From: Alphaproteobacteria bacterium
GTDB taxonomy: Bacteria; Pseudomonadota; Alphaproteobacteria; JASGCL01
DNA length: 64,000 nucleotides
Direction: 5' to 3'
Assembly: GCA_965262605.1 (NCBI GenBank)
Contig: CBDHFN010000003.1
Span: 7,222-71,221 of the forward strand
The notes beneath the pieces were generated by a model, which was not told the DNA's origin, searched no databases, and was given only the letters and a program-made list of their open reading frames with translations. The position numbers and the translations under genes are program-made. This document shows, piece after piece, positions 7,841-50,937 of this stretch. Each line of letters opens with the position of its first letter. The first letter of the stretch is position 1.

Positions 7841-8005
7841 AATTTTTCCTTTTTGATGATTCGTGCATTCACCATAATAAATAAATTGCAAAAATCTAGA
7901 TAAAAAGTGATTTATTTCAATTTAATTGACAAAAAAAATTTGTTTAAGGCAGAAAAATAACTTTTTTTAAACTAATATAAAATTATTATCAATATAGTTG
8001 ACAAA

Positions 8006-23954: not shown

Positions 23955-25040
23955 ATGTCGCGCAGAAAATTTTTAAATAACGCCATAACCACTAGCATAG
24001 GATTATCGCTGGGCGGGGGGGCATTGTTTGCGCCCAATATATTAAAAGCGCAAACCCCGATTTTGCATGTTTTAGCCCCAAGCGCGCTATATTCCAATGA
24101 AATTATTGAATATTTGCAAACTTCTATTAACGCGAAAATTCAAATTACGGCTTATAAAAATGAATTTCAAATTATTAATAATCTTAAATCAAGCAATATT
24201 AATTATGATTTAATTATTTGCAGCCATTTTACCGGTATGATTTTGAAAAAACACGAATTAATTCAGCCGATTCAATGGGGAAAAATTAAAAATATATCCG
24301 TATATCGCTATGATTTTGAAATTAATGATTATGATCCATTGCGCGAATTTTCCATTTTATTTGCGTATCAATTTTGGTCATTGGCATTTAACACAAAATT
24401 AACCTATCAAAAACCGATAAGCTGGGGTGCAATTTTTGATTCTATACCCACTGATTCGCAAATAAATTGGTCGCAAGCACCCATGGATTTAATTAAAACT
24501 GCGTGTTTATATTTGGGTTTTGGCATTAATAATACTAATCGGTCAAATTTTAATATTGTTGAAGACATGTTAATTACCTCTTTGCCTATGGTCAAGAAAA
24601 TACCTTTTAGCTTAAATGTATTGGGTTTTGAATTTAATCAAGTTGACATTGCGTTTGCAACCACGAATCAAATTCAAAACGCGATTAATAACTATAAAAA
24701 CATTGGCGCGGCTTTTCCCAAGGAGGGCGTGCCAGTTTATGAAACTATTGCTTTAATTTCTAAGGATAGTTCACAAATTGAATTGGTGCATAGCTTAATT
24801 AATTTATTGCTTAATCCCCTAGTTGGCAAGGCAATTGCCGAAGATTCGTGCTTATTAAACCCGTTTGAACGGGTAATAAGGCTAACTTCCAATAACTATC
24901 AAACCAATAAAATCATTAATCCATCTTTAAATAAACTTATTAAACTTGAACCCATACGCACCTTTGATATACAAACATATAATTATATGCAAGATATGTG
25001 GGCAAGAATAATTAGCAACGCGAAAAGCGAGTCTTCGTAA
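23955..25040 (+). CDS. PotD/PotF-family periplasmic polyamine-binding-like protein, Tat-type signal (paralog 1)
   Basis: RRKFL signal. Alignable to E. coli PotD (YDLIICSHFTGMILKKHELIQPI ~ YDLVVPSTYYVDKMRKEGMIQKI; PKEG...LINLLLNPLVGKAIAE ~ PKEG...LINFLLRPDVAKQVAE). No permease or ATPase genes adjacent. Confidence 0.6.
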   Translation: MSRRKFLNNAITTSIGLSLGGGALFAPNILKAQTPILHVLAPSALYSNEIIEYLQTSINAKIQITAYKNEFQIINNLKSSNINYDLIICSHFTGMILKKHELIQPIQWGKIKNISVYRYDFEINDYDPLREFSILFAYQFWSLAFNTKLTYQKPISWGAIFDSIPTDSQINWSQAPMDLIKTACLYLGFGINNTNRSNFNIVEDMLITSLPMVKKIPFSLNVLGFEFNQVDIAFATTNQIQNAINNYKNIGAAFPKEGVPVYETIALISKDSSQIELVHSLINLLLNPLVGKAIAEDSCLLNPFERVIRLTSNNYQTNKIINPSLNKLIKLEPIRTFDIQTYNYMQDMWARIISNAKSESS

Positions 25041-26113
25041 TGTTAAGAAGAAATTATCTTAGTAAATTCTTAATGGGAGTATGTGGATTTTCTTTATCAA
25101 ATATTTTAAGTGCAGATGAATTAAAACAAGATAGCGGCGTTATTGAAGGGTATGTGCCACAGGCATCTGGAAATTTGGATTTTTTTGGGCATTTCACGCG
25201 CACATATGGTATAAAAGTTAAATTTAATTCATACACAAATTATTTAAAATTTGTCAATGATGTTTTAAGTGATAAAATTCAAGCCGATTTTCTAATTGTT
25301 AGCTCATACACCGCTGATGCTTTAATTAAAGCGGGCAAAGTCCAAAAAGTAGACTGGAGTAGGGTTAAAAATTATGAATTTCCAAAATATGAATCAGTAA
25401 GTAATACTTATGATAAAAACCGCGAATATAGTTTGCCCATTGGCACGGCTTATTTATGTTTGGCATATGATAAAATTCAATTTCCGAATACACCGTTGAC
25501 TTGGGGGGTTTTATTTGATAAAAAATTACCAAAATCCAAAATTGGTTGGTTAAATTATCCGAATGATGTTTTTCAAATTGCTGGGGCTTATATGGGGTAT
25601 GGTTATAATGTTTCGGATAAAAATACATTAATAAAAATTCAAAAATTTTTAATTGATAATGCCAGCAAAGTTAACCGATTAGCCGAAGGCGCGCAACAAG
25701 ACTTAATAGCGTATAAAGAAGTAAGCCATATTGAAACTTATACTTCGGCAATTTTGCAAGTCATGAATGAATTTAATCATATTGACATTCAATTTCCCCA
25801 AGAAGGCATTTTAGCCGATGAATCGGTTGCCGTCATTCCCAATAGCATGAATAATATGAATAATTTATATCAATTTGTTAATTATTTAATGATACCTTTG
25901 GTAGGCAAAACTTTGATTGAAAGCACTAATCTTGATGCTTCATTTGATAGTTTTTTGCGTTTAACTTCCGCAAAATATAAAAATAATAAATTTATTCACC
26001 CTAATTTAAATAAATCGGCGAAAGTTTACCCATTTTTAAATTTAGGCACGCAATATCAAGATACGATTAATAGCCTATGGCTTGATGTTATTAAAAATAT
26101 TCCCAAAGTTTAA
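25040..26113 (+). CDS. PotD/PotF-family periplasmic binding-like protein (paralog 2)
   Basis: Paralogous to the upstream ORF (TWGVLFD, FPQEG, LMIPLVGKTLIE). Start overlaps the previous gene's stop. Confidence 0.6.
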   Translation: MLRRNYLSKFLMGVCGFSLSNILSADELKQDSGVIEGYVPQASGNLDFFGHFTRTYGIKVKFNSYTNYLKFVNDVLSDKIQADFLIVSSYTADALIKAGKVQKVDWSRVKNYEFPKYESVSNTYDKNREYSLPIGTAYLCLAYDKIQFPNTPLTWGVLFDKKLPKSKIGWLNYPNDVFQIAGAYMGYGYNVSDKNTLIKIQKFLIDNASKVNRLAEGAQQDLIAYKEVSHIETYTSAILQVMNEFNHIDIQFPQEGILADESVAVIPNSMNNMNNLYQFVNYLMIPLVGKTLIESTNLDASFDSFLRLTSAKYKNNKFIHPNLNKSAKVYPFLNLGTQYQDTINSLWLDVIKNIPKV

Positions 26114-26136: not shown

Positions 26137-27240
26137 TTAATCGGCAATAATATTGGCGGAAATCGCGGGCATAATTTTCGCAATTATATCGCGCCATAAA
26201 GGTTTTTCGGGGTTGCCTTGATGGCGTTTGCCGAAAAATATTGCCATAATTTCTCCATTTTTATCAAAAATTTCCAGCGAAGTAATAATGCCATCTAAGG
26301 TGGGTTTTTTGACAACCCAAATATTCGCTATTTTATCCTCGCGCAGGTGCAGGTTAAAATTCGGGTCCATAATATTATACCAATTGTCATAATTTAATAA
26401 ATTATTTACGGGTCCACAATATATTTGAATTACCCCGTGATTGCCCACAAAAATCATCATTTCAGTTTGATAATTGCGAATATCATTGCAAACTTCGCGC
26501 GCCGCATAATTATCAACAAGATAGGCAAAATCACTGCCAATATGGGTAAAAGCCTGTTCGCGACTAACTTTAAATTTACGCAACATGGGGTCAAAATCAT
26601 GCGTGTCTTTAAGATTTTTCCAAGCAACCCTTAAACCCGCCCAATCAATTTCATCATTGTCAAGCATCGGTGCTTTTGCGGGTTTGGGAATAACTTCAAG
26701 CCAATTATCTTGATTTTCATGCGTGAATTTTGCGACTAAATCGTTAAATTTTACTTCGTCAGAATTATCAGTTAAGTATATTTTATGTAATGCCGTGCCA
26801 TATTTATCAAAAAATTGCAAACTTTTGCGGGTTTTAGGGGCAACGCCATCATTCAACGCAAAAGCATATTGCCAATGATTTAAAAATAATCTTAAATCAA
26901 TATCAGGGTTTACAAATAAACCAATGGTCATTTTGCCATGGTGGTGTATTTCAAAATTATCATAAATGCCTTTTCGTTCATGCACGCAATTATCGTTACG
27001 GGTAAGCGCCATTAACTCGCCTAAGGGCTGTAAATCCCCTAAAATTTCGGCAATATTATCGCTTAATCGCGTGGCACCGAAGCCAACTTGCGCTGCGACT
27101 AATTCGCCTTCGGATATATTTAACATTTGCGCCGCATCACGCGCGCGTAGCATTTTATTATTGGCACGCATGGCTGTATATTCAAGATATATATTGTTTT
27201 TTTCTGCGATTGTTGCTTTTTTCATGATAACTCCTTTCAA
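26137..27240 (-). CDS. hemS: hemin-degrading/heme-utilisation protein HemS/ChuS/HmuS family
   Basis: Clear similarity to ChuS along its length (LRLFLNHWQYAF ~ LRLFLNQWASVF; MIFVGNHGVIQIYCGPV ~ MVFVGNRGCVQIFTGVV; KKPTLDGIITSLEIFDKNGE ~ RKPTSDGYVTSLELFAHDGT). Confidence 0.85.
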   Translation of the reverse strand: MKGVIMKKATIAEKNNIYLEYTAMRANNKMLRARDAAQMLNISEGELVAAQVGFGATRLSDNIAEILGDLQPLGELMALTRNDNCVHERKGIYDNFEIHHHGKMTIGLFVNPDIDLRLFLNHWQYAFALNDGVAPKTRKSLQFFDKYGTALHKIYLTDNSDEVKFNDLVAKFTHENQDNWLEVIPKPAKAPMLDNDEIDWAGLRVAWKNLKDTHDFDPMLRKFKVSREQAFTHIGSDFAYLVDNYAAREVCNDIRNYQTEMMIFVGNHGVIQIYCGPVNNLLNYDNWYNIMDPNFNLHLREDKIANIWVVKKPTLDGIITSLEIFDKNGEIMAIFFGKRHQGNPEKPLWRDIIAKIMPAISANIIAD

Positions 27241-27797: not shown

Positions 27798-27816
27798 GAT
27801 AATGATTATCATTATC
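27798..27816. promoter_or_regulatory. Fur box (GATAATGATTATCATTATC) in the hemP promoter
   Basis: 18 of 19 positions match the Fur consensus GATAATGATAATCATTATC. It is embedded in a 35-bp perfect palindrome (27790..27824), 42 bp upstream of the hemP start. Confidence 0.65.
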
Positions 27817-33737: not shown

Positions 33738-35276
33738 TCACAAATATTTTGCGTCAAGTTTAATGGGATATTTCGCGCGCAATTGCTTGTCCAATTCATC
33801 GGATATAAAGCTGTGCGGGGGTTTTGCCAGAATTTTTTCTTTAATATCGCGCGCCCGTTCAACTAAATCAGGTTTGCCATTGGCTGCCCATTCTTTGGGG
33901 GAACTGCGGTCAAAAGTTTGCGGATAAAAATAATCCCGTTGCATTAAACGCATGGTTTGGTCAGAACCCAAGAAATGTCCGGGACCATTAAGGCAAGTTT
34001 GGCGAATCACATCAACCGATAATGTATCTTCATTAACTTCAATCCCACGCACAATGCGCATGACGGAACCCAATAAATCATTATCAAGCACCAAAGTTTC
34101 AAGGCAATATCCCAATAATGATGCGTGCATTCCCGCCGATTCATAAATTATATTTGCGCCAGATTGGGCGTCAATACTATGGGTATAGGCTTTTTCTGCG
34201 CCCGCTTGATAATCGGGCAATTTACTATCCGCCATACCAGCGGCAACGCCCGTTGTTAAATTATAATGCCGTCCCATTTGGGCGACGCCCGCCATTAATA
34301 AGGCTTGTTCGGCACTGCCGCCGCTCATTGCGCCCGTTCGTAAATCGGAGACAAAGGGCCAAGTGCCAAAAATACAAGGCGTACCGGGCACAACCGCATT
34401 GGCATAACATAAAGCCCCCAAAACTTCAGACACTGATTGCACTAAGGATCCAGCAATCGCGGCGGGCGAAGTCGCGCCAGCTTGCCCCGCGGATAATAAT
34501 AAAATCGGCATGCCCGCCAAAGCCGCTTCTTCAAGGCAACGACAAGCATCTTGGGCAAATTTTAAAGGGGGGACAACAAAGCAACAAGACATGCTGACAA
34601 AGGGTCTGGCGCGCCAATTAGCTTCACCACCCGCTATATCATGCAACATTTTCATGGATTCGCGAAATTGCTTGGGGTCAACCCAAGATGTGCCAACATG
34701 CTTGCGCGTGCCCCTTACGGACGCATAACAAGTATTAAAATCCATGTCAAATGGGTCGGGTAAATCACGGCATACCATCGTGCGCTGAAACATATGGATA
34801 TTATCTAAATTATCCACTAATTTCGCGGCATGGTAAAGGTCTTTGGTCGTTGATTCATGGTAAATTTTGGTAAAAGGGTCAACTAAATGCACCGCGGCAC
34901 CAGCGGTAGAAAAATAAACCCGCCCATCCGAAGGGTGCAAGTCATGTTCGGGGTCTTGGGCATAAAGCGTAAAACCACGGGTTGCTTTGGCAATAGTATC
35001 TTCAACTAATGCGCGCGGAAAGCATAATCTGCCTTTTTCATTAACAAATGCGCCAGCTTTGGTGCAATATTCAATAGTCGTAGGCAAGGCATCGGCAAAA
35101 CCGATGGTTTCTAATATTTCAAGGGCGGATTGATGCACTTTTTCCACTTCGCTGGGCGTTAATACTTGATATTTATTGCCCGTCATGCCGCCACGAATTG
35201 GCTTTATATTATCCTCTAATGGTGCGGCACGCATGGCGACTCTGGCTTCTCTGCCACCTGATCTTCTTGAACTCAT
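33738..35276 (-). CDS. MttB-superfamily (trimethylamine/glycine-betaine:corrinoid) methyltransferase
   Basis: 512 aa of MttB-family length and composition. Markedly GC-richer (~50%) than surrounding genes. Confidence 0.7.
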   Translation of the reverse strand: MSSRRSGGREARVAMRAAPLEDNIKPIRGGMTGNKYQVLTPSEVEKVHQSALEILETIGFADALPTTIEYCTKAGAFVNEKGRLCFPRALVEDTIAKATRGFTLYAQDPEHDLHPSDGRVYFSTAGAAVHLVDPFTKIYHESTTKDLYHAAKLVDNLDNIHMFQRTMVCRDLPDPFDMDFNTCYASVRGTRKHVGTSWVDPKQFRESMKMLHDIAGGEANWRARPFVSMSCCFVVPPLKFAQDACRCLEEAALAGMPILLLSAGQAGATSPAAIAGSLVQSVSEVLGALCYANAVVPGTPCIFGTWPFVSDLRTGAMSGGSAEQALLMAGVAQMGRHYNLTTGVAAGMADSKLPDYQAGAEKAYTHSIDAQSGANIIYESAGMHASLLGYCLETLVLDNDLLGSVMRIVRGIEVNEDTLSVDVIRQTCLNGPGHFLGSDQTMRLMQRDYFYPQTFDRSSPKEWAANGKPDLVERARDIKEKILAKPPHSFISDELDKQLRAKYPIKLDAKYL

Positions 35277-35518
35277 AATTACTACCCCTGATAAAGTTTC
35301 AATAATCTTTATTTATCTTAAATCGCGATATTGTCAAGTAATTTTATCATCGGGTAATTCGTAAATTGTTCATGGTTTAATAAATTTTATTAACGACAAG
35401 CTTAAAATAATTTATGAATAATTGCTAATAAAAAATTAAATTGTTAAAAATAACTATTGACTACATTGTATTTTCTGATAAATTTAAATTAATCATATAC
35501 ATAACAGGAGGAATGATT

Positions 35519-37207
35519 ATGTCTAAAAAAATTGAAACATTAACCGGTAAGCCAGCTCACCCTTGGGTTGGACAATATATTGCAGATTTCAAAAGCGGTT
35601 TATTGGAACGCCGTGAATTTTTATCCGCAATTACCGCGCTTGGTGTAACCGCGGCATCGGCTTTAACTTTGGCTGGTTTGCCCAGCAAAGCCAATGCGCA
35701 AACCCCTAAAAAAGGTGGTGTTGTGCGTTTTTCACAAACAGTGCAAAAAATTGCCGACCCCGCATATGGCGAATGGTCACAACATGGTAATGCGTTTCGC
35801 CCCATGCTTGATGGTTTGATTTTATGGAATGATGACGGCACGTTTCAACCTTGGTTGGCTGAAAAATGGGAATATTCCACTGATTTGAAAACTTTCACCC
35901 TGCATTTACGCAAAGGCGTAAAATGGACAAATGGTGATGAATTCAACGCATCAGATATTACCGCAATTTTTGATCGTTGGTTGAATAAATTGCCAAAAAC
36001 TTCCATGCAATCAAAATTTGATGGTATGTTAGAAGAATATGACACGGGTAAAAAAGACGACAAAGGCAATGCAATTAAAGCCAAAAAAGCACTTCCAAAT
36101 TGCGTTAAAGTCGTAGATAGCCATACTGTGCAATTAATTTTCACAAAACCCGATATTTCAATCCCCGGCGGTTTATCTGATTATCCTTCGTTAATTACGC
36201 ATCGCGATTTTGAAAAAAATGGCGGTAATTTTTGGGATAAGCCAATTGGCACTGGTGCTTTTGAAGTGGCAGAATATAAAGTTGGCGAACGGGCTGTTTA
36301 TAATGCGCGTAAATCTGGTTATTGGGGCAAAGGTCCATATATTGATCAATTAGTATATGTTGATTTAGGCGAAGATGCTGGCAAAGAATTAGCTGCTTTT
36401 TCGGCGGGTCAAATTGACATTAACTATAAAACTGCACCCGACCAAGTTTCTAAATTGGAAGCGATTAAAACCATTCAAAAGAATGAAAAAGCAACCGCTG
36501 GAACTTTGGTTATGCGTTTTAACCAAAAAACCAAACCCGGTGATAATAAAAAATTGCGTCAAGCTTTAAATTTATCGGTTGATAATCAAAAAGTGTTGGA
36601 AATTGCATATGCTGGTAAGGCGGCTGCGGCAGAAAACCATCATGTAGCACCAATTCACCCTGAATATGCTAAATTACCTGCGATTAAACGCGATGTAGCG
36701 GCGGCAAAAAAATTATTAGCCGAAGCCGGTTATCCCAATGGTGTTGAATTAGAAATGATTTGTATTGACGCGCCCAAGTTTGAAAGCGATATGGGTTTAT
36801 CCATCGCAGACCAAGCCAAAGACGCAGGCATTAAAATCAATGTTAAAGTTCTTCCCGGTGGTGCATATTGGGATAAATGGGATACATGGCCTCTTTCCAT
36901 CACCGCATGGAATGGTCGCCCATTTGGCACGCAAATTTACAATTTAGCATACCGCTCGGGCGCAGTTTGGAACGAAGCTGGCTATTCAAATCCTGAATTA
37001 GACAAATTATTGGACGAAGCCGACAAAACTCCAGATGCGAAAAAACGCTCGGTGATTATGGAAAAATTGGAAAAAATCATGCAAGAAGATGCAGTAATTT
37101 TACAACCATTCTGGCAAAAAAATTACAATTTTCAAAACACGAAATTGAAAAATTTCAAATATCACTTCGCCAACGAATTCCGTTTTCACGAAGTTTGGAT
37201 TGACTAA
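35519..37207 (+). CDS. ABC transporter substrate-binding protein, family 5 (DppA/OppA-like), Tat signal
   Basis: Start taken at MSKKIETL (GGAGG Shine-Dalgarno upstream). RREFLS twin-arginine motif. Size and composition match a family-5 SBP. Confidence 0.75.
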   Translation: MSKKIETLTGKPAHPWVGQYIADFKSGLLERREFLSAITALGVTAASALTLAGLPSKANAQTPKKGGVVRFSQTVQKIADPAYGEWSQHGNAFRPMLDGLILWNDDGTFQPWLAEKWEYSTDLKTFTLHLRKGVKWTNGDEFNASDITAIFDRWLNKLPKTSMQSKFDGMLEEYDTGKKDDKGNAIKAKKALPNCVKVVDSHTVQLIFTKPDISIPGGLSDYPSLITHRDFEKNGGNFWDKPIGTGAFEVAEYKVGERAVYNARKSGYWGKGPYIDQLVYVDLGEDAGKELAAFSAGQIDINYKTAPDQVSKLEAIKTIQKNEKATAGTLVMRFNQKTKPGDNKKLRQALNLSVDNQKVLEIAYAGKAAAAENHHVAPIHPEYAKLPAIKRDVAAAKKLLAEAGYPNGVELEMICIDAPKFESDMGLSIADQAKDAGIKINVKVLPGGAYWDKWDTWPLSITAWNGRPFGTQIYNLAYRSGAVWNEAGYSNPELDKLLDEADKTPDAKKRSVIMEKLEKIMQEDAVILQPFWQKNYNFQNTKLKNFKYHFANEFRFHEVWID

Positions 37208-37230
37208 TTTTAGTTGATATTAAAATGGCA

Positions 37231-37259
37231 AAGCCCCCAATTTTGGGGGCTTTGTTTTA
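37231..37259 (+). terminator. rho-independent terminator of the SBP gene
   Basis: AGCCCCCAA-TT-TTGGGGGCT hairpin followed by TTTGTTTT. Confidence 0.65.
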
Positions 37260-37289
37260 TATATTTTAATTGCTTGATATATTAAATAT

Positions 37290-38340
37290 ATGCCTGCATC
37301 ATAACAAAGAAAAAATCCTTAAAATCCTTGGTAAAGGGGGTTTGGGGGAATCCCCCAAAATATAGCGAATAAAACAGCAAGAATTTTTATTTACGCACCT
37401 TATTTTGCGCTTACGCTTTACTAGGATTTTAAGGATTGAAAAGGATTTAAGGATTATTAAAATATCACCATTTAAAACAGCAAGAATTTTTATTTTCGCA
37501 CCTTATTTTGCGCTTACGCTTTACTAGAATTAAAAGAATTTTAAGAATTAAAAGAATTTAATGATTATTAAAATATTTAATTATCAAATTTGTTTAAAAA
37601 TATATGGTTGCATGATGAAAAAGAAAAAAATTCTTAAAATTCTTAAAATTCTTAAAATTCTTGGTAAAGGGGGTTTGGGGGAATCCCCCAAAATATAACG
37701 AATAAAACAGCATGAATTTTTATTTTCGCACCCGTTTTGACGCTTACGCTTTAATAGGATTATGGGATTATAGGATTAAATGATTATTAAAATAGTAATT
37801 AATCAAATTCGGTTAAAAATATATGCATGTATGATGAAAAAGAAAAAATTCCTTCAATCTTTTTAATCCTTAAATCCCATTTTAAGGGGGATTGGGGGAA
37901 TCCCCCAAAATATAACGAATAAAACAGCAAGAATTTTTATTTTCGCACCTTATTTTGCGCTTACGCTTGAATAGAATTAAAAGAATTAAAAGAATTTAAT
38001 GATTATTATAATATTTAATTATCAAATTTGGTAAAAAATATATGATTGAATGATGAAAGAGAAAAAAAATTCTTAAAATTCTTAAAATTCTTGTAAAAGG
38101 GGGTTTGGGGGAATCCCCCAAAATATAACGAAAAAACAGCATGAAATTTTATTTTCGCACCCGTTTTAACGCTTACGCTTGAATAGAATTAAAAGAATTA
38201 AAAGAATTTAATGATTATTATAATATTTAATTATCAAATTTGGTAAAAAATATATGGTTGAATGATGAAAGAGAAAAAAATTCTTAAAATTCTTAAAATT
38301 CTCGCGCGAAGCGCAAAGCGTAAGCGTTAATTTAAATCCA
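37290..38340 (+). repeat. tandem array (~4.5 units of ~220 bp) of a structured AT-rich repeat family containing a GGGGG-A-CCCCC palindrome
   Basis: Repeated units: ...TATATGnTTGnATGATGAAAnAGAAAAAAA(TTCTTAAAAT)n TCTTGGTAAAGGGGGTTTGGGGGAATCCCCCAAAATATAACGAATAAAACAGCAAGAATTTTTATTTTCGCACC.TTATTTTGCGCTTACGCTTT... Unit starts near 37604, 37822, 38040 and 38263. Confidence 0.85.
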
Positions 38341-38526
38341 TTCTAAATTTGCACATAAGCAAGAAAATTATCGTCATTAATATACTATGCCATGGGTAAT
38401 TATATTTGAACCCTGCTATTACGGGGCTGGTAATAATTAATCCATAAATCGCTAATGCTAATTAATCTTTTCTGCTCCTTGCATGCACCGCAAGTATTGC
38501 ATCAGGGCTTGAAATAGTCTGTTGAC

Positions 38527-39108
38527 TTATACCTTAATGATATTCGCGATTGCTGTGCTGACTTTATCAATCGCTAATGTGCCGTCTAAAACCGATAATT
38601 TACCGCTTGATTGATAATAAGGCAGGACAGGGGCGGTTGATTCATGGTAAGTTTTTAATCGTTTCTTTAAGGTTTCTTCGTTATCATCGGCGCGAACTGG
38701 AATATTCTTGGCGATATTTTCAGCAGCGCGCGATTGAATTCGTTGCAATAAAATCTCGTCTGGGACGCGTAATTCAATAACATGGTTAATGGTTTTTTTC
38801 GCGCTTGCCAACATTTTATCTAAACCTTCGGCTTGGGGGATAGTGCGCGGAAACCCATCTAAAATAAAGCCATTTTGGCAATCTGATTCGGTAATGCGGT
38901 TTGCAATAATGCCAATAATGGTTGCATCATCAACTAATTGCCCTGCTTCCATAATGGATTTTGCTTTTAAGCCAAGATCCGTGCCATCTTTAACGGCTTG
39001 GCGAAGCATATCGCCCGTGGCAAGTTGCACTATATTATGTTTTTTGGTAAGAATCTCCGCTTGCGTGCCTTTTCCTGCGCCCGGTGGTCCAAACATAATT
39101 ATAATCAT
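38527..39108 (-). CDS. adk: adenylate kinase
   Basis: P-loop GPPGAGKGTQ. LID and NMP-binding regions. Follows secY. Confidence 0.9.
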   Translation of the reverse strand: MIIIMFGPPGAGKGTQAEILTKKHNIVQLATGDMLRQAVKDGTDLGLKAKSIMEAGQLVDDATIIGIIANRITESDCQNGFILDGFPRTIPQAEGLDKMLASAKKTINHVIELRVPDEILLQRIQSRAAENIAKNIPVRADDNEETLKKRLKTYHESTAPVLPYYQSSGKLSVLDGTLAIDKVSTAIANIIKV

Positions 39109-39112
39109 AGCA

Positions 39113-40453
39113 TTACCTTTTTTGAGTTAATTTTGATTTTTTGATTAATTTTTCATATTGATGGGCGAATAAATGCCCTTGAATTTGGGTAACCGTGTCC
39201 ATGGTAACTGATACCACGATAAGCAAGCTTGTGCCACCAAAATAAAATGGCACGGAATATTGCGAAATTAAAATTTCAGGCAAAACGCAAACCACCGCCA
39301 AATAAGCCGCACCAATACAGGTTAAACGGGTAAGAATATAATCAAAATAATCGGCTGTATTTTTGCCGGGGCGAATGCCCGTAATAAATCCACCTTGCTT
39401 GCGTAAATTTTCTGCCGTTTCTTCGGGGTTAAAAACAACCGCCGTATAAAAAAATGCGAAAAACACAATAAGCGTTACATAGGTAATAATATAGGCAATA
39501 TGACCGCGCCCTAAGGAAGTTGCGATAGTTTGCAACCAATCGGGGCCGGTATTTTGCAAGAATCCTAAAATTGTTAAAGGCAATAATAAAATTGAACTGG
39601 CAAAAATTGGCGGAATCACCCCTGCCGTGTTTAATTTTAACGGCATATGCGAAGTATCACCGCCAAATTGCTTATTGCCAACCATTCGTTTGGGGTAAGT
39701 AACTAAAATCTTGCGTTGCGCCCGTTCAATGAAAACTATAAAAGCCACAACTGCAATCGCTAATGCTAAAAAAATGATAATGAAAAAAGTGCTTAAAGCA
39801 CCATTTCTGCCCAATTCCAATAAGCGCACCAAAGCAACCGGTAAATTTGCAACAATCCCCGAAAATATAATCAAGCTTACGCCATTACCAATGCCGCGAT
39901 TTGTGATTTGCTCGCCCAACCACATTAAAAATAATGTGCCCGCCGTTAAAGTTGACACCGTGGTAATGATGAAAAAACTTTTGCTTAACACGACAACGGG
40001 ACCTACGGGGCTTGTCGCGCCAATAAGGCTTACCGCGATGCCGTAAGATTGCACAATGGCTAATAATAAAGTTAAATATCTTGTATATTGGCTTATTTTT
40101 TTGCGTCCCGCTTCACCATCTTTTTTTAATGCTTCAATCGCAGGCACAATGGAAGTTAATAATTGCATAATAATTGATGCCGAAATATAAGGCGCGATAT
40201 TTAACGCAAATATCGTCATGCGCCCCAAAGCACCGCCCGAAAACATATCAAACATGCCCAATATCCCTTGGGATTGGGTTTTAAAAATAGCCGCAAGCGC
40301 AACAGGATTAACACCGGGCAAAGGAATATATGTGCCAATTCGGTAAACAACCAAAGCCGCCAAGGCAAAAAATATCCGTGATTTTAACTCACTTGATTTG
40401 CCCATGGCAGACATGGAAAAGTTTTTTGCAAATTGATCAGTAACCGAAGCCAT
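39113..40453 (-). CDS. secY: preprotein translocase subunit SecY
   Basis: 446 aa with 10 TM helices, in the conserved rplO-secY-adk order. Confidence 0.95.
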   Translation of the reverse strand: MASVTDQFAKNFSMSAMGKSSELKSRIFFALAALVVYRIGTYIPLPGVNPVALAAIFKTQSQGILGMFDMFSGGALGRMTIFALNIAPYISASIIMQLLTSIVPAIEALKKDGEAGRKKISQYTRYLTLLLAIVQSYGIAVSLIGATSPVGPVVVLSKSFFIITTVSTLTAGTLFLMWLGEQITNRGIGNGVSLIIFSGIVANLPVALVRLLELGRNGALSTFFIIIFLALAIAVVAFIVFIERAQRKILVTYPKRMVGNKQFGGDTSHMPLKLNTAGVIPPIFASSILLLPLTILGFLQNTGPDWLQTIATSLGRGHIAYIITYVTLIVFFAFFYTAVVFNPEETAENLRKQGGFITGIRPGKNTADYFDYILTRLTCIGAAYLAVVCVLPEILISQYSVPFYFGGTSLLIVVSVTMDTVTQIQGHLFAHQYEKLIKKSKLTQKR

Positions 40454-40461
40454 TTGATTTA

Positions 40462-41007
40462 TTAAGCTGCTAAACGACTAGCGCGTTTTTTTTCTGAATC
40501 AACACGGCGTTGTTGGCGTTTGCCCCATTTCGCTGGCGTTGCTTTTTCAACAACTTTGACCGAACCACCCAATGATTCAATTAAGGCAACCACCGAAGCC
40601 GATGCACCCGCAACATCAAAATTGCAATTTTTAGCATCAAATGCAACATCAGAACCAACAAGGCGAATACCATCGCGTTTATTGCTTATCACACCCGCGG
40701 CAACAATCGCATCGCAAGTTATCGGTGATTTAATGTCAATTTTTTTCGCTTCAATGAATGGCAATAAGCGACCCAAAGAAATTGTGACAAAGCGTTTCGC
40801 ATTTGGATTTTTAAATCCGCGTTTCGGTAAACGGCGATATAAAGGCATTTGACCACCTTCAAACCCATTAATTGCCACGCCTGAACGGGCTGTTTGCCCT
40901 TTGCCACCGCGTCCGCAAGTTTTACCTTTGCCAGAGCCAATACCGCGTCCGACACGCATTCTTGATTTTCTTGCGCCTTCGTTATCAAATAATTCATTTA
41001 ATTGCAT
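40462..41007 (-). CDS. rplO: 50S ribosomal protein L15
   Basis: Gly/Arg-rich N-terminus ([21 protein letters not shown]). Confidence 0.9.
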
Positions 41008-41011
41008 GATG

Positions 41012-41221
41012 TTAACTTTCTAATTTAATTAAATGCTGAACTTTGCGAATCATGCCTTGCACCGAAGGTGTATCAATTAATTCGCTGGTTTTGTGCATTT
41101 TGTTTAAGCCCAAACCAATTAAGGTTGCCCGTTGATCCTTTTTGCGCCGAATCGGCGAACCAATTTGCGTAATTTTCACTGTTGCTGGTGCAACGGCTTG
41201 TTTTTCTGCTTTTTTTGCCAT
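41012..41221 (-). CDS. rpmD: 50S ribosomal protein L30
   Basis: 69 aa ([26 protein letters not shown]). Confidence 0.85.
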
Positions 41222-41394
41222 AATAATTTCCTAAAATTCGTTTAATATCTCTATTTAACTATGCCTTTTAATAAGTTATTCATTAAGAGTCAATAGATAT
41301 TTTAAGGAATAAGAATTTTTTTATGATATACCCTGATTACTGCCATGATATTGAGTGGCATTGGTATTTGTGCGAATCGCTTTATTATAACCAG

Positions 41395-41510
41395 AAAATA
41401 TAAATTCTTGCTGTTTTATTCGTTATATTTTGGGGGATTCCCCCAAACCCCCTTTACCAAGAATTTTAAGAATTTCTTTTAATTCCATTCAAGCGCAAAA
41501 TATATAAACT
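41395..41510 (-). repeat. solo copy of the G5-A-C5 repeat family (reverse orientation)
   Basis: AAATTCTTGCTGTTTTATTCGTTATATTTTGGGGGATTCCCCCAAACCCCCTTTACCAAGAATTTTAAGAATTT... matches array units at 37290..38340 and 44560..45660. Flanked by imperfect inverted motifs TTGAGTGGcATTG / CAATACCACTCAA. Confidence 0.7.
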
Positions 41511-43438: not shown

Positions 43439-44494
43439 TTAACCATAAATTTCTTGCCAAGCATTCGCAATTTCAATAGCGGTTGATTCAGAAAAATTCT
43501 TGGCTTGAATAATTTTAATTTTCTTTGGGTAAATATCCGCATTATTCAAATGAGCATTATCTAAAATAAAGCTTGCTTCGCGATTATATGTGCCTAAATT
43601 TAGTGTTTCTGAGGTATTTTTCGCAATCGCAGGCGAAAGCATTAAATCAATAAATGCGTGCGCGGCACTTAAATTATCGCTTGTTTTGGGGATAAGCACC
43701 GCATAATCATCGCGAATAATACCCTCTTCGGGCAGGGAAATCCCTAAATAATTAAACGATTTTTTAGCACTAATTATATCATGGGCAAAAGATACGGTTA
43801 TATCAGCATTATTATCAATAATTTGCTGAAAGCTGTTAAAATTAACGATGTTGCTGATATTTTTCTTGCAATTAGCAAGAAATTTTTGGGCATTTAAAAT
43901 TTCATCGCTGGTCGGATCGTTAAAATTAGCATTCATGTAATTTAATGCTAAGCGAAACATAATATTACCATCATTTAGCCATGCAATGCGCGCCGTGGTG
44001 CCATCACTTTTTGTCGTGGGCTTTGTAAAAATTGTGCCCCATGAAGTTTGTTTGGATAATTTTTTTTCGTTATACCCCAAAATAATATTGTAATAAAATA
44101 ATGGCAAAGAAAATTTTAAGGCTGTGTCGTAATTATTTTTGTAATTTTTTTCAATATTATCAAAATTTTTCAAATATTTAGGGTTAATCGGGTTTATATA
44201 ATTACGCTTAATATAAGGCGCAAGTTCTGAACCAGATGCAATTATGCAATCATATTTAACATTTTTCTGAATAATTTCTTTAGCTAATTCATCGTTATTA
44301 TAATAATTTTTTATATCTAAGACTACCCCATAAACCGAACGGAAATAATCGGTTAAATAGCGCGAATCATAAAATCCGGGGCATAAAATCTGCAATTGCC
44401 CCGCCGCGCGTAATTTATCCACTACGCCCCCGCTAAGTCCTGCAATAGCAATATATTGAACGAGTGATTTGAAAAAATTTCTTCTATCTAACAT
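43439..44494 (-). CDS. PotD/PotF-family periplasmic binding-like protein, Tat-type signal (paralog 3)
   Basis: RRNFF motif. Paralogous to 23955..26113 (SWGTIFT, LPEEG, LMLSPAIAK). No transporter genes adjacent. Confidence 0.55.
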   Translation of the reverse strand: MLDRRNFFKSLVQYIAIAGLSGGVVDKLRAAGQLQILCPGFYDSRYLTDYFRSVYGVVLDIKNYYNNDELAKEIIQKNVKYDCIIASGSELAPYIKRNYINPINPKYLKNFDNIEKNYKNNYDTALKFSLPLFYYNIILGYNEKKLSKQTSWGTIFTKPTTKSDGTTARIAWLNDGNIMFRLALNYMNANFNDPTSDEILNAQKFLANCKKNISNIVNFNSFQQIIDNNADITVSFAHDIISAKKSFNYLGISLPEEGIIRDDYAVLIPKTSDNLSAAHAFIDLMLSPAIAKNTSETLNLGTYNREASFILDNAHLNNADIYPKKIKIIQAKNFSESTAIEIANAWQEIYG

Positions 44495-44559
44495 GTTTGC
44501 AATTTTAGCTTGATTATTTTAAGAGTCAAGTAAAAAATAACATGACTTTCCTTATTTTT

Positions 44560-45660
44560 TATTTGATAAGATTATATTTATTATTTTGTATGGCAATAGT
44601 TTGGGGGATTCCCAAATCACGAAAACATTATAATTCGTGGCTGTTTGAACGCTTGCGCTTTAATGGGATTAAAGGATTGAACGATTGATTTTATAATTTC
44701 TGTTTCGCACCTTTTTAATATAATTCACGATAAACCACCCCGCTTGTTTATTGCCAAGGCAATTACGCAAGTATTGCAAAGCAAGCGTGGTGGTTTAAAA
44801 TCTTTTAATCATTAAAATTCTTAGAAAAATATATAAAATTCTTTTAATTCTTTTAATTTTATTTAAGCGTAAGCGTCAAAACGGGTGCGAACCGAAAAAA
44901 TTCATGCTGTTTTATTCGTTATATTTTGGGGGATTCCCCCAATCCCCCTTAAAATAGGATTTAAGGATTAAAAAGATTGAAGGATTTTTTTCTTTTTCAT
45001 CATGCAGGCATATATTTTTAAACGAATTTGATTAATTACTATTTTAATAATCCTATAATCCCATAATCCTATTAAAGCATAAGCGCAAAATAGAGTACGA
45101 AAATAAAAATTCTTGCTGTTTTATTCGCTATATTTTTGGGGGATTCCCCCAAACCCCCTTTACCAAGAATTTTAAGAATTGAAAAGAATTTTAAGAATTT
45201 TTTTCTTTGTCATCATGCAACCTTATATTTTTAACCGAATTTGATTAATTACTATTTTAATAATCCTATAATCCCATAATCCTATTAAAGCGTAAGCGCA
45301 AAATAGAGTACGAAAATAAAAATTCTTGCTGTTTTATTCGCTATATTTTTGGGGGATTCCCCCAAACCCCCTTTTGCAAAAATTTTAAGAATTGAAAAGA
45401 ATTTTAAGAATTTTTTTCTTTGTCATCATGCAACCATATATTTTTAACCGAATTTGATTAATTACTATTTTAATAATCCTATAATCCCATAATCCTATAA
45501 TCCCATAATCCCATAATCCTATTAAAGCGCAAGCGCAAAATATGGTGCGAAAATAGAAATTCTTGCTGTTTTAGATGGTGATATTTTAATAATCTTTTAA
45601 TCCTATTAAAGCGTAAGCGCAAAATAAGGTGCGACAATAAAAAATCATGCTAATATAAAA
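44560..45660 (-). repeat. tandem array of the same repeat family in inverted orientation (~4 units, first unit degenerate/interrupted)
   Basis: Reverse complement of the units of 37290..38340 (...TTTTGGGGGATTCCCCCAAACCCCCTTTACCAAGAATTTTAAGAATT...). Includes the ATAATCC(C/T)ATAATCC short tandem tracts. Confidence 0.85.
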
Positions 45661-45810
45661 GCTTTCATCACCGATGGCAATACCACTCAATCATATGGCG
45701 ATATTCATGCACAGCATCGTTGATGCTAAATTCTGAGGAATGTCCTGAAAAATAACAAGAGATTCCCCATTTTTATTGGATAAAAATTTATGCTGTTTTA
45801 AATTGTGGAT

Positions 45811-50589: not shown

Positions 50590-50937
50590 CTATTCATTAT
50601 TATCAACTTTAACAATTTCCGTCATTGTCACGCCTAAATTGCCATTAATAAGCACAACTTCGCCCCGTGCGATAAGCCGATTATTAACAAAAATTTCAAT
50701 GGCTTCACCGACACGGCGATTTAATTCAATTAAATCACCATTTTTTAATTTTAATAATTGATTAACTGGTAATGATGCCTGACCCAAAACCGCCATAACC
50801 ACGACTGGCACTTCAAAAACGGCTTCTAAGTCGGACGAACCAGTCGGATTATCTAAACCCGCTTGTCCTTCAAAAAATTCGCGTCCATTTTCTTGATCTA
50901 ACTGATTAAGATTCATACCTGAACTTGATTTTGTCAT
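50590..50937 (-). CDS. fliN: flagellar motor switch protein FliN
   Basis: 115 aa with a SpoA-like C-terminal domain (LKNGDLIELNRRVGEAIEIFVNNRLIARGEVV). Confidence 0.8.
   Translation of the reverse strand: MTKSSSGMNLNQLDQENGREFFEGQAGLDNPTGSSDLEAVFEVPVVVMAVLGQASLPVNQLLKLKNGDLIELNRRVGEAIEIFVNNRLIARGEVVLINGNLGVTMTEIVKVDNNE

What the first reader, a model, noticed from the sequence alone, without database searches (positions are those of the whole stretch)
37290..38340. Tandem array of a ~220-bp structured repeat with a G5-A-C5 palindrome and 10-bp-phased A-tracts
Four to five consecutive units share a conserved core: TCTTGGTAAAGGGGGTTTGGGGGAATCCCCCAAAATATAACGAATAAAACAGCAAGAATTTTTATTTTCGCACC. The core is flanked by variable short tandem tracts, namely TTCTTAAAAT repeated 2-4 times, AAGGATT/AAAAGAATT, and GGATTAT. 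The TTTGGGGGAATCCCCCAAA element can form a 9-bp stem with a 1-nt loop. The 10-bp periodic A-tracts predict strongly curved DNA. This is not a CRISPR array, because units abut without spacers. It is not coding either, because the ATG-initiated KILKILKIL frame in one unit is destroyed in the others. It looks like a lineage-specific palindromic repeat family, analogous to REP/RPE/MITE-type elements, amplified in tandem.
Basis: seen in the sequence. Interest (0 to 1): 0.55.

Follow-up and report, generated by a model that had tools for sequence, protein, structure and literature searches.

The report
Hairpin-rich intergenic tandem repeat family
A real, non-coding ~212-bp repeat full of hairpin-forming inverted repeats sits in two oppositely oriented arrays plus one stray copy between genes of a poorly sampled alphaproteobacterium; it looks like the unstable "satellite"/VNTR DNA known from other small alphaproteobacterial genomes, and nothing points to a new functional system.

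Summary
The array is real: period 212 bp, about five units at 37262-38331, and non-coding. It matches no Rfam family and has no per-unit promoter or terminator.

A second array of the same family lies inverted at 44593-45657, and a solo fragment at 41394-41500.

Each unit is a mosaic of:
- a D segment;
- an arm of 8-9-bp boxes;
- a ~70-nt AT-rich centre;
- the inverted arm;
- a G5-AAT-C5 hairpin.

The arms form a long hairpin in 5 of 7 full units. Two unit haplotypes are interleaved, and the closest unit pair lies across the two arrays. Both arrays end in an inverted partial unit.

The "10-bp phased A-tract / curved DNA" claim fails. The short tracts have periods of 9 and 8 bp, and there is no helical periodicity.

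The family is absent from every collection searched and from the two closest relatives. Where synteny could be compared, it breaks at or beside the repeat sites. The 64-kb window holds no transposase.

Best reading: a lineage-specific, MITE-like palindromic unit amplified into a VNTR-type satellite by slippage and unequal exchange, with the whole array copied during local rearrangement. The closest analogues are Wolbachia VNTR-105/141 and the Ehrlichia ruminantium repeats.

Interest is low to moderate.

The parts
37262..38331 (+). Array 1. It comprises a partial head unit (37262-37369), a truncated unit (37370-37472), full units u1 37473-37702, u2 37703-37919 and u3 37920-38131, and the terminal unit u4 38132-38331. 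It lies between the 3' ends of an SBP_bac_5 gene (+) and adk (-).
   Evidence: TRF period 212; alignment of units; module breakdown; nhmmer hits with E 1e-20 to 1e-65; flanking genes.
37341..37359 (.). G5-AAT-C5 palindrome TTTGGGGGAATCCCCCAAA (module C). Further copies in array 1 are at 37674-37692, 37892-37908 and 38104-38122. It is preceded by an extra GGGGG(T/A)TT.
   Evidence: Eight copies in the window against 0.04 expected; folds as an 8-bp stem with a 3-nt loop in every unit; invariant across units.
37526..37661 (.). Example of the long internal inverted repeat of a unit. Arm E (37526-37559) is a run of AGAATT boxes at 9-bp spacing. Arm B (37628-37661) is a run of AATTCT boxes. They flank the ~70-nt AT-rich centre A. 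The type-II counterpart is at 37762-37780 / 37862-37880 (GGATT / AATCC boxes).
   Evidence: Inverted-repeat pairs I2 (34 nt, 88% complementary) and I6 (19 nt, 89%); MFE folds with z about -5.3 on either strand; pair counts.
38166..38330 (.). Terminal ~165-bp palindromic (MITE-like) unit of array 1. The outer 15-nt arms TTAACGCTTACGCTT / AAGCGTAAGCGTTAA are perfectly complementary. Inside them are three box pairs and the A centre.
   Evidence: Inverted pair I9, 100% complementary; DNA fold -30.9 kcal/mol, z -4.5.
41394..41500 (-). Solo partial unit between cobT (3' end) and rpmD (5' end). It has a shortened D3', one E box, no A centre, two B boxes, the C hairpin (41428-41446) and D5'.
   Evidence: Similarity to the close relative L105 stops at 41341, 53 bp short of the fragment's gene-proximal end at 41394.
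44593..45657 (-). Array 2, inverted relative to array 1. It comprises a diverged head unit (45574-45660), full units u1 45337-45573, u2 45124-45336 and u3 44915-45123, and a decayed tail (44593-44914). The tail holds an inverted D3' copy (44650-44676) and a degenerate C hairpin (44596-44613). The array lies between the 3' end of an NTP_transferase gene and the 5' end of an orphan solute-binding-protein gene.
   Evidence: TRF period 213, 93% matches; sequence; blastn and nhmmer; module breakdown; genes.
44732..44796 (.). Unrelated 65-bp palindromic element (termini AAACCACCNCGCTTG) inserted in the tail of array 2. A longer element with the same termini lies downstream of adk in relative L105.
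   Evidence: L105 sequence.

Best explanation
WHAT IT IS. A non-coding, lineage-specific, AT-rich (26-30% G+C) satellite or VNTR-type repeat. Its ~212-bp unit derives from a palindromic, MITE-like sequence. That sequence has an outer arm GCGCTTACGCTT, a run of 8-9-bp boxes, a ~70-nt centre and the inverted arm. A G5-AAT-C5 hairpin and a ~33-nt D5' segment are added.

HOW IT EVOLVES. Hairpin-prone inverted repeats promote slipped-strand mispairing and unequal exchange. These processes expand, contract and homogenise the array. Box number inside the arms changes in the same way one level down. The array as a whole, with its head and inverted tail, was copied in inverted orientation 6.3 kb away. 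A decayed fragment was left at a third site. These events accompanied the local rearrangements that scrambled gene order in this lineage.

FUNCTION. It most likely has no dedicated function. Expected side effects are recombination substrates, structural obstacles in DNA or in read-through RNA, and strain-to-strain length variation. The two arrays share perfect inverted matches of up to 51 bp, so they could invert the adk-secY-rplO-rpmD-cobT-SBP segment.

SHOWN VERSUS INFERRED. Shown: the anatomy, hairpin potential, the relationships between units, absence from relatives, and no coding, RNA-family, promoter or terminator signal. Inferred: the slippage/exchange mechanism, the copying of the whole array, and the inversion potential.
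For: NO SIGN OF A GENE OR RNA FAMILY
- The period, 212 bp, is not a multiple of 3, and the only recurrent ATG frame runs 8-28 codons.
- No Rfam family reaches its gathering score in the arrays. Within the array units the permissive scan gave nothing better than E about 1, at roughly a third or less of each family's gathering score; its few low-E hits (0.006-0.06, about half gathering score) sit on the upstream gene's terminator hairpin at the array's edge. No tRNA or tmRNA was found.
- Promoter-like sites are no more frequent than in shuffles, and there is no intrinsic terminator inside either array.

HAIRPIN POTENTIAL
- Strong on both strands equally (z -5.3 and -5.4).
- Perfect 15-nt outer arms in the terminal unit.

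SATELLITE-LIKE DYNAMICS
- There are two unit haplotypes. Type I is AGAATT / AATTCT / GGGGGTTT. Type II is GGATT / AATCC / GGGGGATT. They are interleaved in both arrays, and array 2 u1 and u2 are chimeric.
- A1u2 is 95% identical to A2u3 but only 86-88% identical to its own neighbours.
- Central units are the most alike, while head and tail units are decayed.
- Box number varies from 2 to 5 per arm.

COPYING OF A WHOLE ARRAY
- Both arrays share the odd D-E-ATTATTAAAATATCACCAT-D junction near the head. Both also end in an inverted D3' copy.

LOCAL, NOT DISPERSED
- All three sites lie within 8.5 kb, with nothing in the other ~55 kb.
- No transposase or integrase was found among 49 ORFs.

REARRANGEMENT CONTEXT
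- Similarity to relative L105 (88% nucleotide identity) runs only from 41341 to 38533. It therefore ends 53 bp short of the solo copy on one side and at the adk stop codon on the other, about 200 bp of unique spacer before array 1.
- L105 and L103/L106 have different neighbouring genes at all three places and lack the repeat.
- L105 carries other hairpin elements and an IS110 fragment there.

PRECEDENT
- Wolbachia VNTR-141 and VNTR-105 are intergenic, have 141- and 105-bp periods with 23-bp hairpins on 9-bp stems, are confined to wMel-like strains, and are attributed to hairpin-triggered slippage and concerted evolution (PMC3287509).
Against: - The arms show some co-variation: A-T changes to G-C in every box of both arms between haplotypes. 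Hairpin box number is matched in type-I units (4/4, 3/3, 3/3). The covariation score is 0.161 against 0.121 in shuffles, reached by 5 of 500 shuffles. This could reflect selection for pairing. However, it rests on about two independent events among seven related sequences. The tool's own calibration says 5-25% of unconstrained alignments reach that level.
- All three copies have the same orientation as the gene immediately upstream. This would fit a transcribed 3'-UTR element.
- Copy-number variation between strains, which is the defining behaviour of a VNTR, could not be tested.
- The genome-wide copy number is unknown.
Confidence: 0.55

Rival explanations
1. A non-autonomous mobile element (MITE/REPIN-like) is mobilised in trans by a transposase encoded elsewhere in the genome. 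It tends to insert next to copies of itself, and this builds the arrays.
For: - It meets the descriptive MITE features listed in PMC3049150: AT-rich, long terminal inverted arms, highly base-paired.
- Copies lie at three separate intergenic sites.
- Two subfamilies are interleaved in the arrays.
- The solo copy defines unit ends (TTTTGCGC...ATTTTC) that differ from the array register. This leaves an 8-nt linker, GCACCTTA, between units.
- Another palindromic element has inserted into array 2. An IS110 fragment sits at the equivalent place in relative L105.
Against: - No clear target-site duplication flanks the solo copy or the arrays (by inspection).
- No transposase was found among 49 ORFs in 64 kb.
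- All copies lie within 8.5 kb.
- The arrays share head and tail architecture. This is better explained by copying a whole array.
- No copy was found in any relative or public collection.
Confidence: 0.2
2. Each unit encodes, or acts as, a structured RNA: a long interrupted hairpin followed by a GC hairpin. It could be a small RNA, an RNase III substrate, or a 3'-UTR stabiliser or attenuator of the upstream gene.
For: - Fold z-scores are about -5.3.
- 95% of cells are paired, and three pairs show changes on both sides.
- In the chimeric units the arm mismatches are G-U on the forward strand. They would be A-C on the reverse strand.
- All three copies are co-oriented with the upstream gene. No canonical terminator separates NTP_transferase or cobT from the element.
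Against: - No Rfam match.
- No per-unit promoter above chance and no intrinsic terminator on either strand.
- The long hairpin is lost from the MFE fold of 2 of 7 units.
- Folding is equally good on both strands, as expected of DNA palindromes.
- Array 1 is preceded by a strong terminator of the upstream gene at 37227-37256.
- No relatives are available for a real covariation test.
Confidence: 0.1
3. The arrays are protein-binding iterons. The 6-bp boxes AGAATT/GGATT sit at 8-9-bp spacing in opposed blocks around an AT-rich centre. They would serve as a centromere-like, origin-like or nucleoid-organising site.
For: - Blocks of 2-5 identical boxes face each other across an AT-rich ~70-bp centre. 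This is formally like iteron/operator layouts.
- The G5-AAT-C5 palindrome also contains the GGATT/AATCC box (by inspection).
Against: - No partition, replication-initiator or regulator gene adjoins any copy.
- There is no GC-skew inflection, so the site is not an origin or terminus.
- Two box variants switch in concert on both arms. Base pairing or templated copying explains this; a single protein specificity does not.
- Fur-box similarity is at background level (5 mismatches).
- GANTC sites are not depleted in the window as a whole, so the one site at each hairpin apex is not a distinctive CcrM-type signal (211 observed, 223 expected).
Confidence: 0.07
4. The array is an assembly artefact, with repeats expanded, collapsed or mis-joined.
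For: - Tandem and inverted repeats of ~1 kb are classic sources of mis-assembly.
- No reads were available to check.
Against: - Units differ from one another (82-95% identity) and carry unit-specific indels, so they can be ordered unambiguously.
- Both arrays have unique, non-repeated flanks that continue into intact genes.
- The record is a single 1.72-Mb contig.
Confidence: 0.03

Closest known systems
Wolbachia VNTR-141 and VNTR-105 (PMC3287509)
   Same: - Intergenic, head-to-tail repeats in a small alphaproteobacterial genome.
- The period (105-141 bp) is built from internal direct and inverted short repeats plus hairpins with 9-bp stems.
- Restricted to one narrow lineage.
- Units carry internal deletions.
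- Attributed to hairpin-triggered slippage and concerted evolution.
   Different: - No sequence similarity.
- The unit here is longer (212 bp). It contains a much longer arm-centre-arm hairpin (~130 nt) made of 8-9-bp boxes.
- The family occurs as two inverted arrays plus a solo copy, not as single loci.
- Strain polymorphism is not yet shown.
Ehrlichia ruminantium intergenic tandem repeats (Collins et al. 2005, as cited in PMC10710844 and PMC3287509)
   Same: Non-coding tandem repeats that actively expand and contract in long intergenic regions of a reduced alphaproteobacterial genome.
   Different: Those repeats are many unrelated local duplications. Here one structured family recurs at three sites. 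The organism is a different, Rhodospirillales-like lineage: the best SecY identity to any other species representative is 68-70%.
BOX elements of Streptococcus pneumoniae and BIME/NIME-type mosaic elements (PMC3049150)
   Same: A composite, modular build in which an inner module is tandemly repeated a variable number of times between fixed outer modules. The elements are tightly folded, intergenic, and vary in length by unequal crossover.
   Different: BOX elements are dispersed at more than 100 sites per genome, have TIRs with target-site duplications, and are under 200 bp as a rule. Here the whole mosaic is itself tandemly repeated, and only three clustered sites are known.
REP/REPIN-RAYT systems and MITEs such as Correia elements, RPE, RIME and Bru-RS (own knowledge, plus the definition in PMC3049150)
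   Same: Palindromic, AT-rich, intergenic and lineage-specific. The terminal unit at 38166-38330 has MITE-like terminal inverted arms.
   Different: - REPs are 20-40 bp and occur in hundreds of copies with a flanked RAYT gene.
- RPEs insert in frame into genes.
- MITEs show target-site duplications and dispersed single copies.
- None of these features was found here.

Membership tests
Hairpin-containing intergenic VNTR / satellite repeats (descriptive class; Wolbachia VNTR-105/141 type) | Head-to-tail repeats of about 100-250 bp lying wholly in intergenic DNA | tested here: met
   Period 212/213 bp in the 37208-38526 and 44495-45810 intergenic gaps.
Hairpin-containing intergenic VNTR / satellite repeats (descriptive class; Wolbachia VNTR-105/141 type) | Internal palindromes or short internal repeats within the period | tested here: met
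   G5-AAT-C5 hairpin; E/B arms of 8-9-bp boxes.
Hairpin-containing intergenic VNTR / satellite repeats (descriptive class; Wolbachia VNTR-105/141 type) | Copy number varies between closely related strains | not testable with these tools
   No second strain carrying the locus could be retrieved. The nearest relative, L105 (88% nucleotide identity), lacks the family.
Hairpin-containing intergenic VNTR / satellite repeats (descriptive class; Wolbachia VNTR-105/141 type) | Restricted to a narrow lineage | tested here: met
   No related copy in genome, metagenome, viral, plasmid or phage collections, or in relatives. Caveat: the collection scans used exact patterns only.
MITE | Terminal inverted repeats and a tightly base-paired fold; AT-rich; under ~300 bp | tested here: met
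   38166-38330 has perfect 15-nt outer arms and paired boxes. G+C is 26-30% against 38% for the window.
MITE | Target-site duplication flanking insertions | tested here: inconclusive
   By inspection of the solo copy and array ends, only a weak AT-rich resemblance (GTTTATATA / GGTTATAATA) was seen. No empty site is available for comparison.
MITE | Many dispersed copies and a related autonomous IS | tested here: inconclusive
   Three sites, all within 8.5 kb of a 64-kb window. No transposase in the window.
REP/REPIN with RAYT | 20-40-bp imperfect palindrome present in many copies, often as inverted pairs | tested here: not met
   The only short palindrome (19 bp) always occurs inside the 212-bp unit in one orientation relative to it. 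There are 8 copies, all in the three sites.
REP/REPIN with RAYT | Associated RAYT (Y1 HUH transposase) gene | tested here: inconclusive
   None among 49 ORFs of the window. The genome outside the window was not testable.
Rickettsia palindromic elements (RPE) | In-frame insertion into protein-coding genes; similarity to an RPE family | tested here: not met
   All copies are intergenic. RPE similarity was not tested: no RPE library was available, and no copy was found in any sequence collection searched. The host is not Rickettsia-like.
CRISPR array | 23-47-bp repeats separated by unique spacers, with cas genes | tested here: not met
   Units of 212 bp abut without unique spacers. None of the 49 large ORFs scanned has a Cas-domain hit.
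Known RNA families (Rfam 15) | Score at or above a family's gathering threshold | tested here: not met
   No hit in the arrays at gathering score. Within the array units the permissive scan gave nothing better than E about 1, at roughly a third or less of each family's gathering score. Its few low-E hits (0.006-0.06, about half gathering score) sit on the upstream gene's terminator hairpin at the array's edge.
Integron cassette array (attC sites) | intI gene; attC with R''/R' core sites (RYYYAAC ... GTTRRRY); variable cassette content | tested here: not met
   No tyrosine recombinase in the window. No core-site pair was found at the arm ends by inspection. The 'cassette' part (C-D) is the most conserved part, not the variable one.

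The most novel reading that the evidence does not exclude
The unit is an active element of a new kind, in one of two forms:
- a non-autonomous mobile palindrome that targets its own ends and so builds arrays. An IS110-type or other recombinase encoded elsewhere might drive it; an IS110 fragment occupies the equivalent site in the nearest relative.
- an array of long-hairpin RNAs whose arms are kept paired by selection. The concerted A-T to G-C switch and the matched box numbers in both arms hint at this.
Probability: 0.1. Interest if true: 0.6.

Novelty: new member of a known kind. Interest (0 to 1): 0.3.

Why it matters
- PRACTICAL. The two arrays are ready-made VNTR typing markers. They are also likely assembly trouble spots for a barely sampled, small-genome (1.72 Mb) alphaproteobacterial lineage.
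- GENOME EVOLUTION. Two ~1-kb inverted arrays bracket essential genes (adk, secY, rplO, rpmD), and gene order there differs from both relatives. This makes the region a concrete place to study how hairpin-rich repeats drive rearrangement in reduced genomes.
- FUNCTION. Nothing found so far suggests a new functional system. If the hairpin arms prove to be under selection, or the unit proves to be mobile, it would be a new family of structured bacterial repeats worth describing.

Tried and rejected
- CODING. The conserved ATGATG start gives peptides of 8-28 aa with different sequences. Rejected.
- KNOWN RNA. Rfam at gathering score and at permissive thresholds, plus ARAGORN. Nothing.
- sRNA GENES WITH THEIR OWN SIGNALS. 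Promoter-like sites are at or below shuffle expectation, and there is no terminator in either array.
- CURVED DNA. The short-tract periods are 9 and 8 bp, and there is no 10-11-bp Fourier peak. Rejected.
- CcrM/GANTC. Each hairpin apex contains GAATC, but GANTC is not depleted in the window (211 against 223 expected). Dropped.
- FUR REGULATION OF THE A CENTRE. The best match has 5 mismatches, which is background level, whereas a genuine perfect Fur box exists at 27798. Dropped.
- SIGMA-54, XerCD/dif, integron attC, CtrA (TTAA-N7-TTAA) and IHF consensus checks by eye on the D, E and A modules. Spacing or core bases do not fit. Dropped; these were inspections, not formal tests.
- ORIGIN OR TERMINUS. 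No GC-skew inflection.
- FINDING RELATIVES OF THE REPEAT.
  - Exact-pattern scans of genome, metagenome and viral collections gave only chance single hairpins.
  - blastn against plasmids and phages gave nothing.
  - An nhmmer profile against 108 fetched loci gave nothing.
  - Literature string search gave nothing.
- FETCHING MORE OF THE SOURCE GENOME. Exact-protein look-ups returned 'not on record'. 90%-identity clusters contain only the L105 contig.
- ORGANISM NAME. Accession searches in the paper library found nothing.
- The homologue search with the solute-binding protein next to array 2 returned only itself.
Full report
WHAT IS THERE

The reported array exists.
- Tandem Repeats Finder gives a 212-bp period, 3.8 copies and 83% matches at 37473-38302.
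- With two partial units at its head, the array fills 37262-38331. This is most of the 1.3-kb gap between the 3' end of a family-5 solute-binding-protein gene (35441-37207, +) and the 3' end of adk (38527-39108, -).
- The palindrome core TTGGGGGAATCCCCCAAAA occurs eight times in the 64-kb window, against 0.04 expected.
Two copies lie within three mismatches of it.

- The same family forms a second array on the opposite strand at 44593-45657. Its TRF core is 44896-45498, with period 213 and 93% matches. It lies between the 3' end of a nucleotidyl-transferase gene and the 5' end of a solute-binding-protein gene.
- A solo partial unit lies at 41394-41500, between cobT and rpmD.
- A unit profile finds nothing else in the window.
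- All three sites therefore lie within 8.5 kb. Each is co-oriented with the gene upstream of it.

ANATOMY

Aligning the units shows a mosaic of five modules:
- D: TAAAACAGCAAGAATTTTTATTTTCGCACC-TTA-TTTTGCGCTTACGCTT.
- E: 2-5 copies of an 8-9-bp box, either AGAATTAAA or GGATTAT(G/A).
- A: a ~70-nt AT-rich centre ending in TATATGGTTGCATGATGAAAAAGAAAAAAA.
- B: the reverse complement of E, that is AAAATTCTT or AATCC boxes.
- C: GGTAAAGGGGG(T/A)TTGGGGGAATCCCCCAAAATATAACGAA.

E and B form a long interrupted hairpin around A (34 nt at 88% complementarity, 19 nt at 89%). A unit folds with z = -5.3 on the plus strand and -5.4 on the minus strand. It is therefore a DNA-level palindrome with no strand preference.

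The last unit of array 1 (38166-38330) is a complete ~165-bp palindrome. Its outer 15-nt arms, TTAACGCTTACGCTT / AAGCGTAAGCGTTAA, are perfectly complementary. Array 2 also ends in an inverted D3' copy at 44650-44676.

CORRECTIONS TO THE OBSERVATION

- The short tracts have periods of 9 and 8 bp, not 10.
- Neither array shows AA/TT periodicity at 10-11 bp or above shuffled controls. The curved-DNA inference therefore falls.
- The G5/C5 element is an 8-bp stem with a 3-nt loop.
The peptides are 28, 11, 8, 22, 14, 14 and 11 residues long.

RELATIONSHIPS BETWEEN UNITS

Two haplotypes exist:
- Type I: AGAATT boxes, centre ATTTAATTATC, AATTCT boxes, GGGGGTTT.
- Type II: GGATT boxes, centre AGTAATTAATC, AATCC boxes, GGGGGATT.

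They are interleaved in both arrays. Array 2 u1 and u2 are chimeras, with type-II E and A joined to type-I B and C. In those two units the long hairpin is absent from the minimum-energy fold.

A1u2 is 95% identical to A2u3 but only 86-88% identical to its own neighbours. Both arrays share an odd truncated junction near the head, D-E-ATTATTAAAATATCACCAT(T/C)-D. The arrays are thus copies of one another as wholes. They have since been modified by duplication (A1u3/u4 94%, A2u1/u2 95%), exchange and box-number change, with decayed units at the edges. This is the pattern expected of a satellite evolving by slippage, unequal crossing-over and gene conversion.

IS THE HAIRPIN SELECTED?

The evidence is suggestive but weak.
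- Between haplotypes, the third box position changes from A-T to G-C on both arms.
- Type-I units have equal box numbers on both arms (4/4, 3/3, 3/3).
- On the seven-unit alignment, 95.3% of cells pair and three pairs change on both sides. The covariation score is 0.161 against 0.121 in shuffles, reached by 5 of 500 shuffles.
- These seven sequences are close relatives and represent about two independent events. By the tool's own calibration this level is reached without constraint in 5-25% of cases.
- Two of the seven units have lost arm complementarity.

FUNCTIONAL SIGNALS LOOKED FOR AND NOT FOUND

- No Rfam family at gathering score in the arrays. In the permissive scan nothing inside the array units was better than E about 1, at roughly a third or less of each family's gathering score. 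The few low-E hits (0.006-0.06, about half gathering score) sit on the upstream gene's terminator hairpin at the array's edge.
- No tRNA or tmRNA.
- No excess of sigma-70-like promoters and no intrinsic terminator inside either array or the solo copy.
- The only good terminator, 37227-37256, belongs to the upstream gene and precedes array 1.
- The rpmD and SBP promoter-like TTGACTCTTA motifs lie outside the repeat. For rpmD the motif is conserved in relative L105, which lacks the repeat.
- GANTC is not depleted in the window.
- Fur-box similarity is at background level.
- There is no GC-skew turn.
- Pfam scans of 49 ORFs found no transposase, integrase, Cas, Par or Rep protein.

DISTRIBUTION

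- Exact-pattern scans of 185,579 species-representative genomes found nothing.
- JGI metagenomes and IMG/VR returned only isolated G5/C5 hairpins with unrelated flanks.
- PLSDB plasmids and GenBank phages gave no blastn match.
- The paper library holds none of the diagnostic strings.

The host is an alphaproteobacterium on a 1.72-Mb contig. Its SecY is at most 68-70% identical to named Rhodospirillales-type bacteria.

Two relatives could be fetched:
- L105 is an ENA metagenome contig with 88% nucleotide identity over rpmD-adk.
- L103/L106 come from assembly GCA_013572995.1, at 72% identity.

Neither carries the family. Similarity to L105 runs from window 41341 to 38533 only. On one side it ends 53 bp short of the solo copy. 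On the other it ends at the adk stop codon, and array 1 begins about 200 bp of unique spacer beyond that. In L105 those places hold flgE plus three unrelated perfect hairpins (z = -9.9) and an IS110 fragment plus another palindromic element. In L106 the genes after flhA-DUF2155 also differ. So gene order differs from the relatives at or beside every repeat site that could be compared.

The rest of the source genome could not be retrieved. A genome-wide count remains open.

INTERPRETATION

The best-supported reading (about 0.55) has four parts:
- It is a lineage-specific, non-coding, hairpin-rich satellite or VNTR-type repeat.
- Its unit derives from a MITE-like palindrome.
- It was amplified and homogenised by slippage and unequal exchange.
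- The whole array was copied in inverted orientation during local rearrangement, leaving a decayed solo fragment.

The two arrays share perfect inverted matches of up to 51 bp. In my understanding this is long enough for homologous recombination, so the 6.3-kb adk-secY-rplO-rpmD-cobT-SBP segment may be invertible. That step is inference.

Rival readings:
- A trans-mobilised MITE/REPIN-like element: 0.2.
- A structured RNA: 0.1.
- Protein-binding iterons: 0.07.
- An assembly artefact: 0.03.

COMPARISON WITH KNOWN SYSTEMS

- Wolbachia VNTR-141/-105 are the closest analogues. They are intergenic, with 105-141-bp periods built from short direct and inverted repeats and 23-bp hairpins with 9-bp stems. 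They are confined to one strain group and are ascribed to hairpin-triggered slippage and concerted evolution (PMC3287509).
- Ehrlichia ruminantium has actively expanding and contracting intergenic repeats (PMC10710844).
- The modular build recalls BOX elements and BIME/NIME mosaics, and the unit meets the descriptive MITE criteria of PMC3049150 except for target-site duplication and dispersal.
- It is not a REP/RAYT system, an RPE, a CRISPR array, an integron array or any Rfam family by the features tested.

VERDICT

This is a real feature, partly mis-described. It is more extensive than reported but ordinary in kind: a new sequence family of a known class. Interest is 0.3.

Noticed in passing
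window 9339-12174 (+): A SIR2-like protein (381 aa) and a HerA-type ATPase (566 aa) overlap by 11 nt in a low-G+C island (about 30-33% against 38% for the window). They match the PADLOC SIR2 and HerA models at E 3e-79 and 3e-141, so this is a SIR2-HerA anti-phage defence pair.
   Followed up: partly
window 4905-6404 (-): A 499-aa Eco57I / type IIG-like methyltransferase ORF is wedged between the large (368-4903) and small (6410-7891) glutamate synthase subunit genes. No nuclease partner was seen.
   Followed up: partly
window 27798-27816: A perfect match (0 mismatches) to the 19-bp Fur-box consensus GATAATGATAATCATTATC lies in the 0.8-kb gap between a hemS/chuX haem-degradation gene (26137-27240, -) and secB (28032, +).
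   Followed up: no
window 34136-34235 (-): An Rfam PYLIS_3 (pyrrolysine insertion sequence, mttB) hit above gathering score (47 bits against 38) lies inside the MttB-family methyltransferase gene 33738-35276. It probably reflects conserved coding sequence and not Pyl decoding.
   Followed up: no
window 44732-44796; L105 7293-7452: A second, unrelated palindromic element has termini AAACCACCNCGCTTG. A 65-bp copy sits inside the tail of array 2. A ~160-bp element with the same termini lies downstream of adk in the relative L105. This looks like a MITE-like family shared by the two genomes.
   Followed up: partly
L105 4200-4420: In the closest relative, the gap upstream of rpmD holds three consecutive near-perfect hairpins (DNA fold -45 kcal/mol, z -9.9). 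They are unrelated in sequence to the window's repeat. Hairpin-rich intergenic DNA seems to be a trait of this lineage.
   Followed up: partly
window 38527-41221; L103 and L105: The rpmD-rplO-secY-adk block is detached from the rest of the ribosomal-protein operon (no rpsE upstream) in this genome and in both relatives. Each has different flanking genes: cobT, flgE, or a methyltransferase.
   Followed up: partly
window 43439-44494 (-): The solute-binding protein gene just downstream of array 2 has a twin-arginine-like N-terminus (MLDRRNFF). In the 5.8-billion-protein search it has no homologue at E <= 1e-60 other than itself.
   Followed up: partly
window 23955-26113 (+), 50934-52124, 55066-55791, 57458-58144, 59217-60392 (-): Six sizeable ORFs (228-396 aa) have no Pfam match at E <= 1e-5. 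Two are adjacent at 23955-25040 and 25040-26113, and those two also have no PADLOC match.
   Followed up: no
window 38489-38501 and 44766-44778: The 13-mer CGCAAGTATTGCA occurs near the tail of both arrays in the same absolute orientation, that is, not mirrored like the arrays. At 44766-44778 it lies inside the 65-bp palindromic element. Its meaning is unclear.
   Followed up: no
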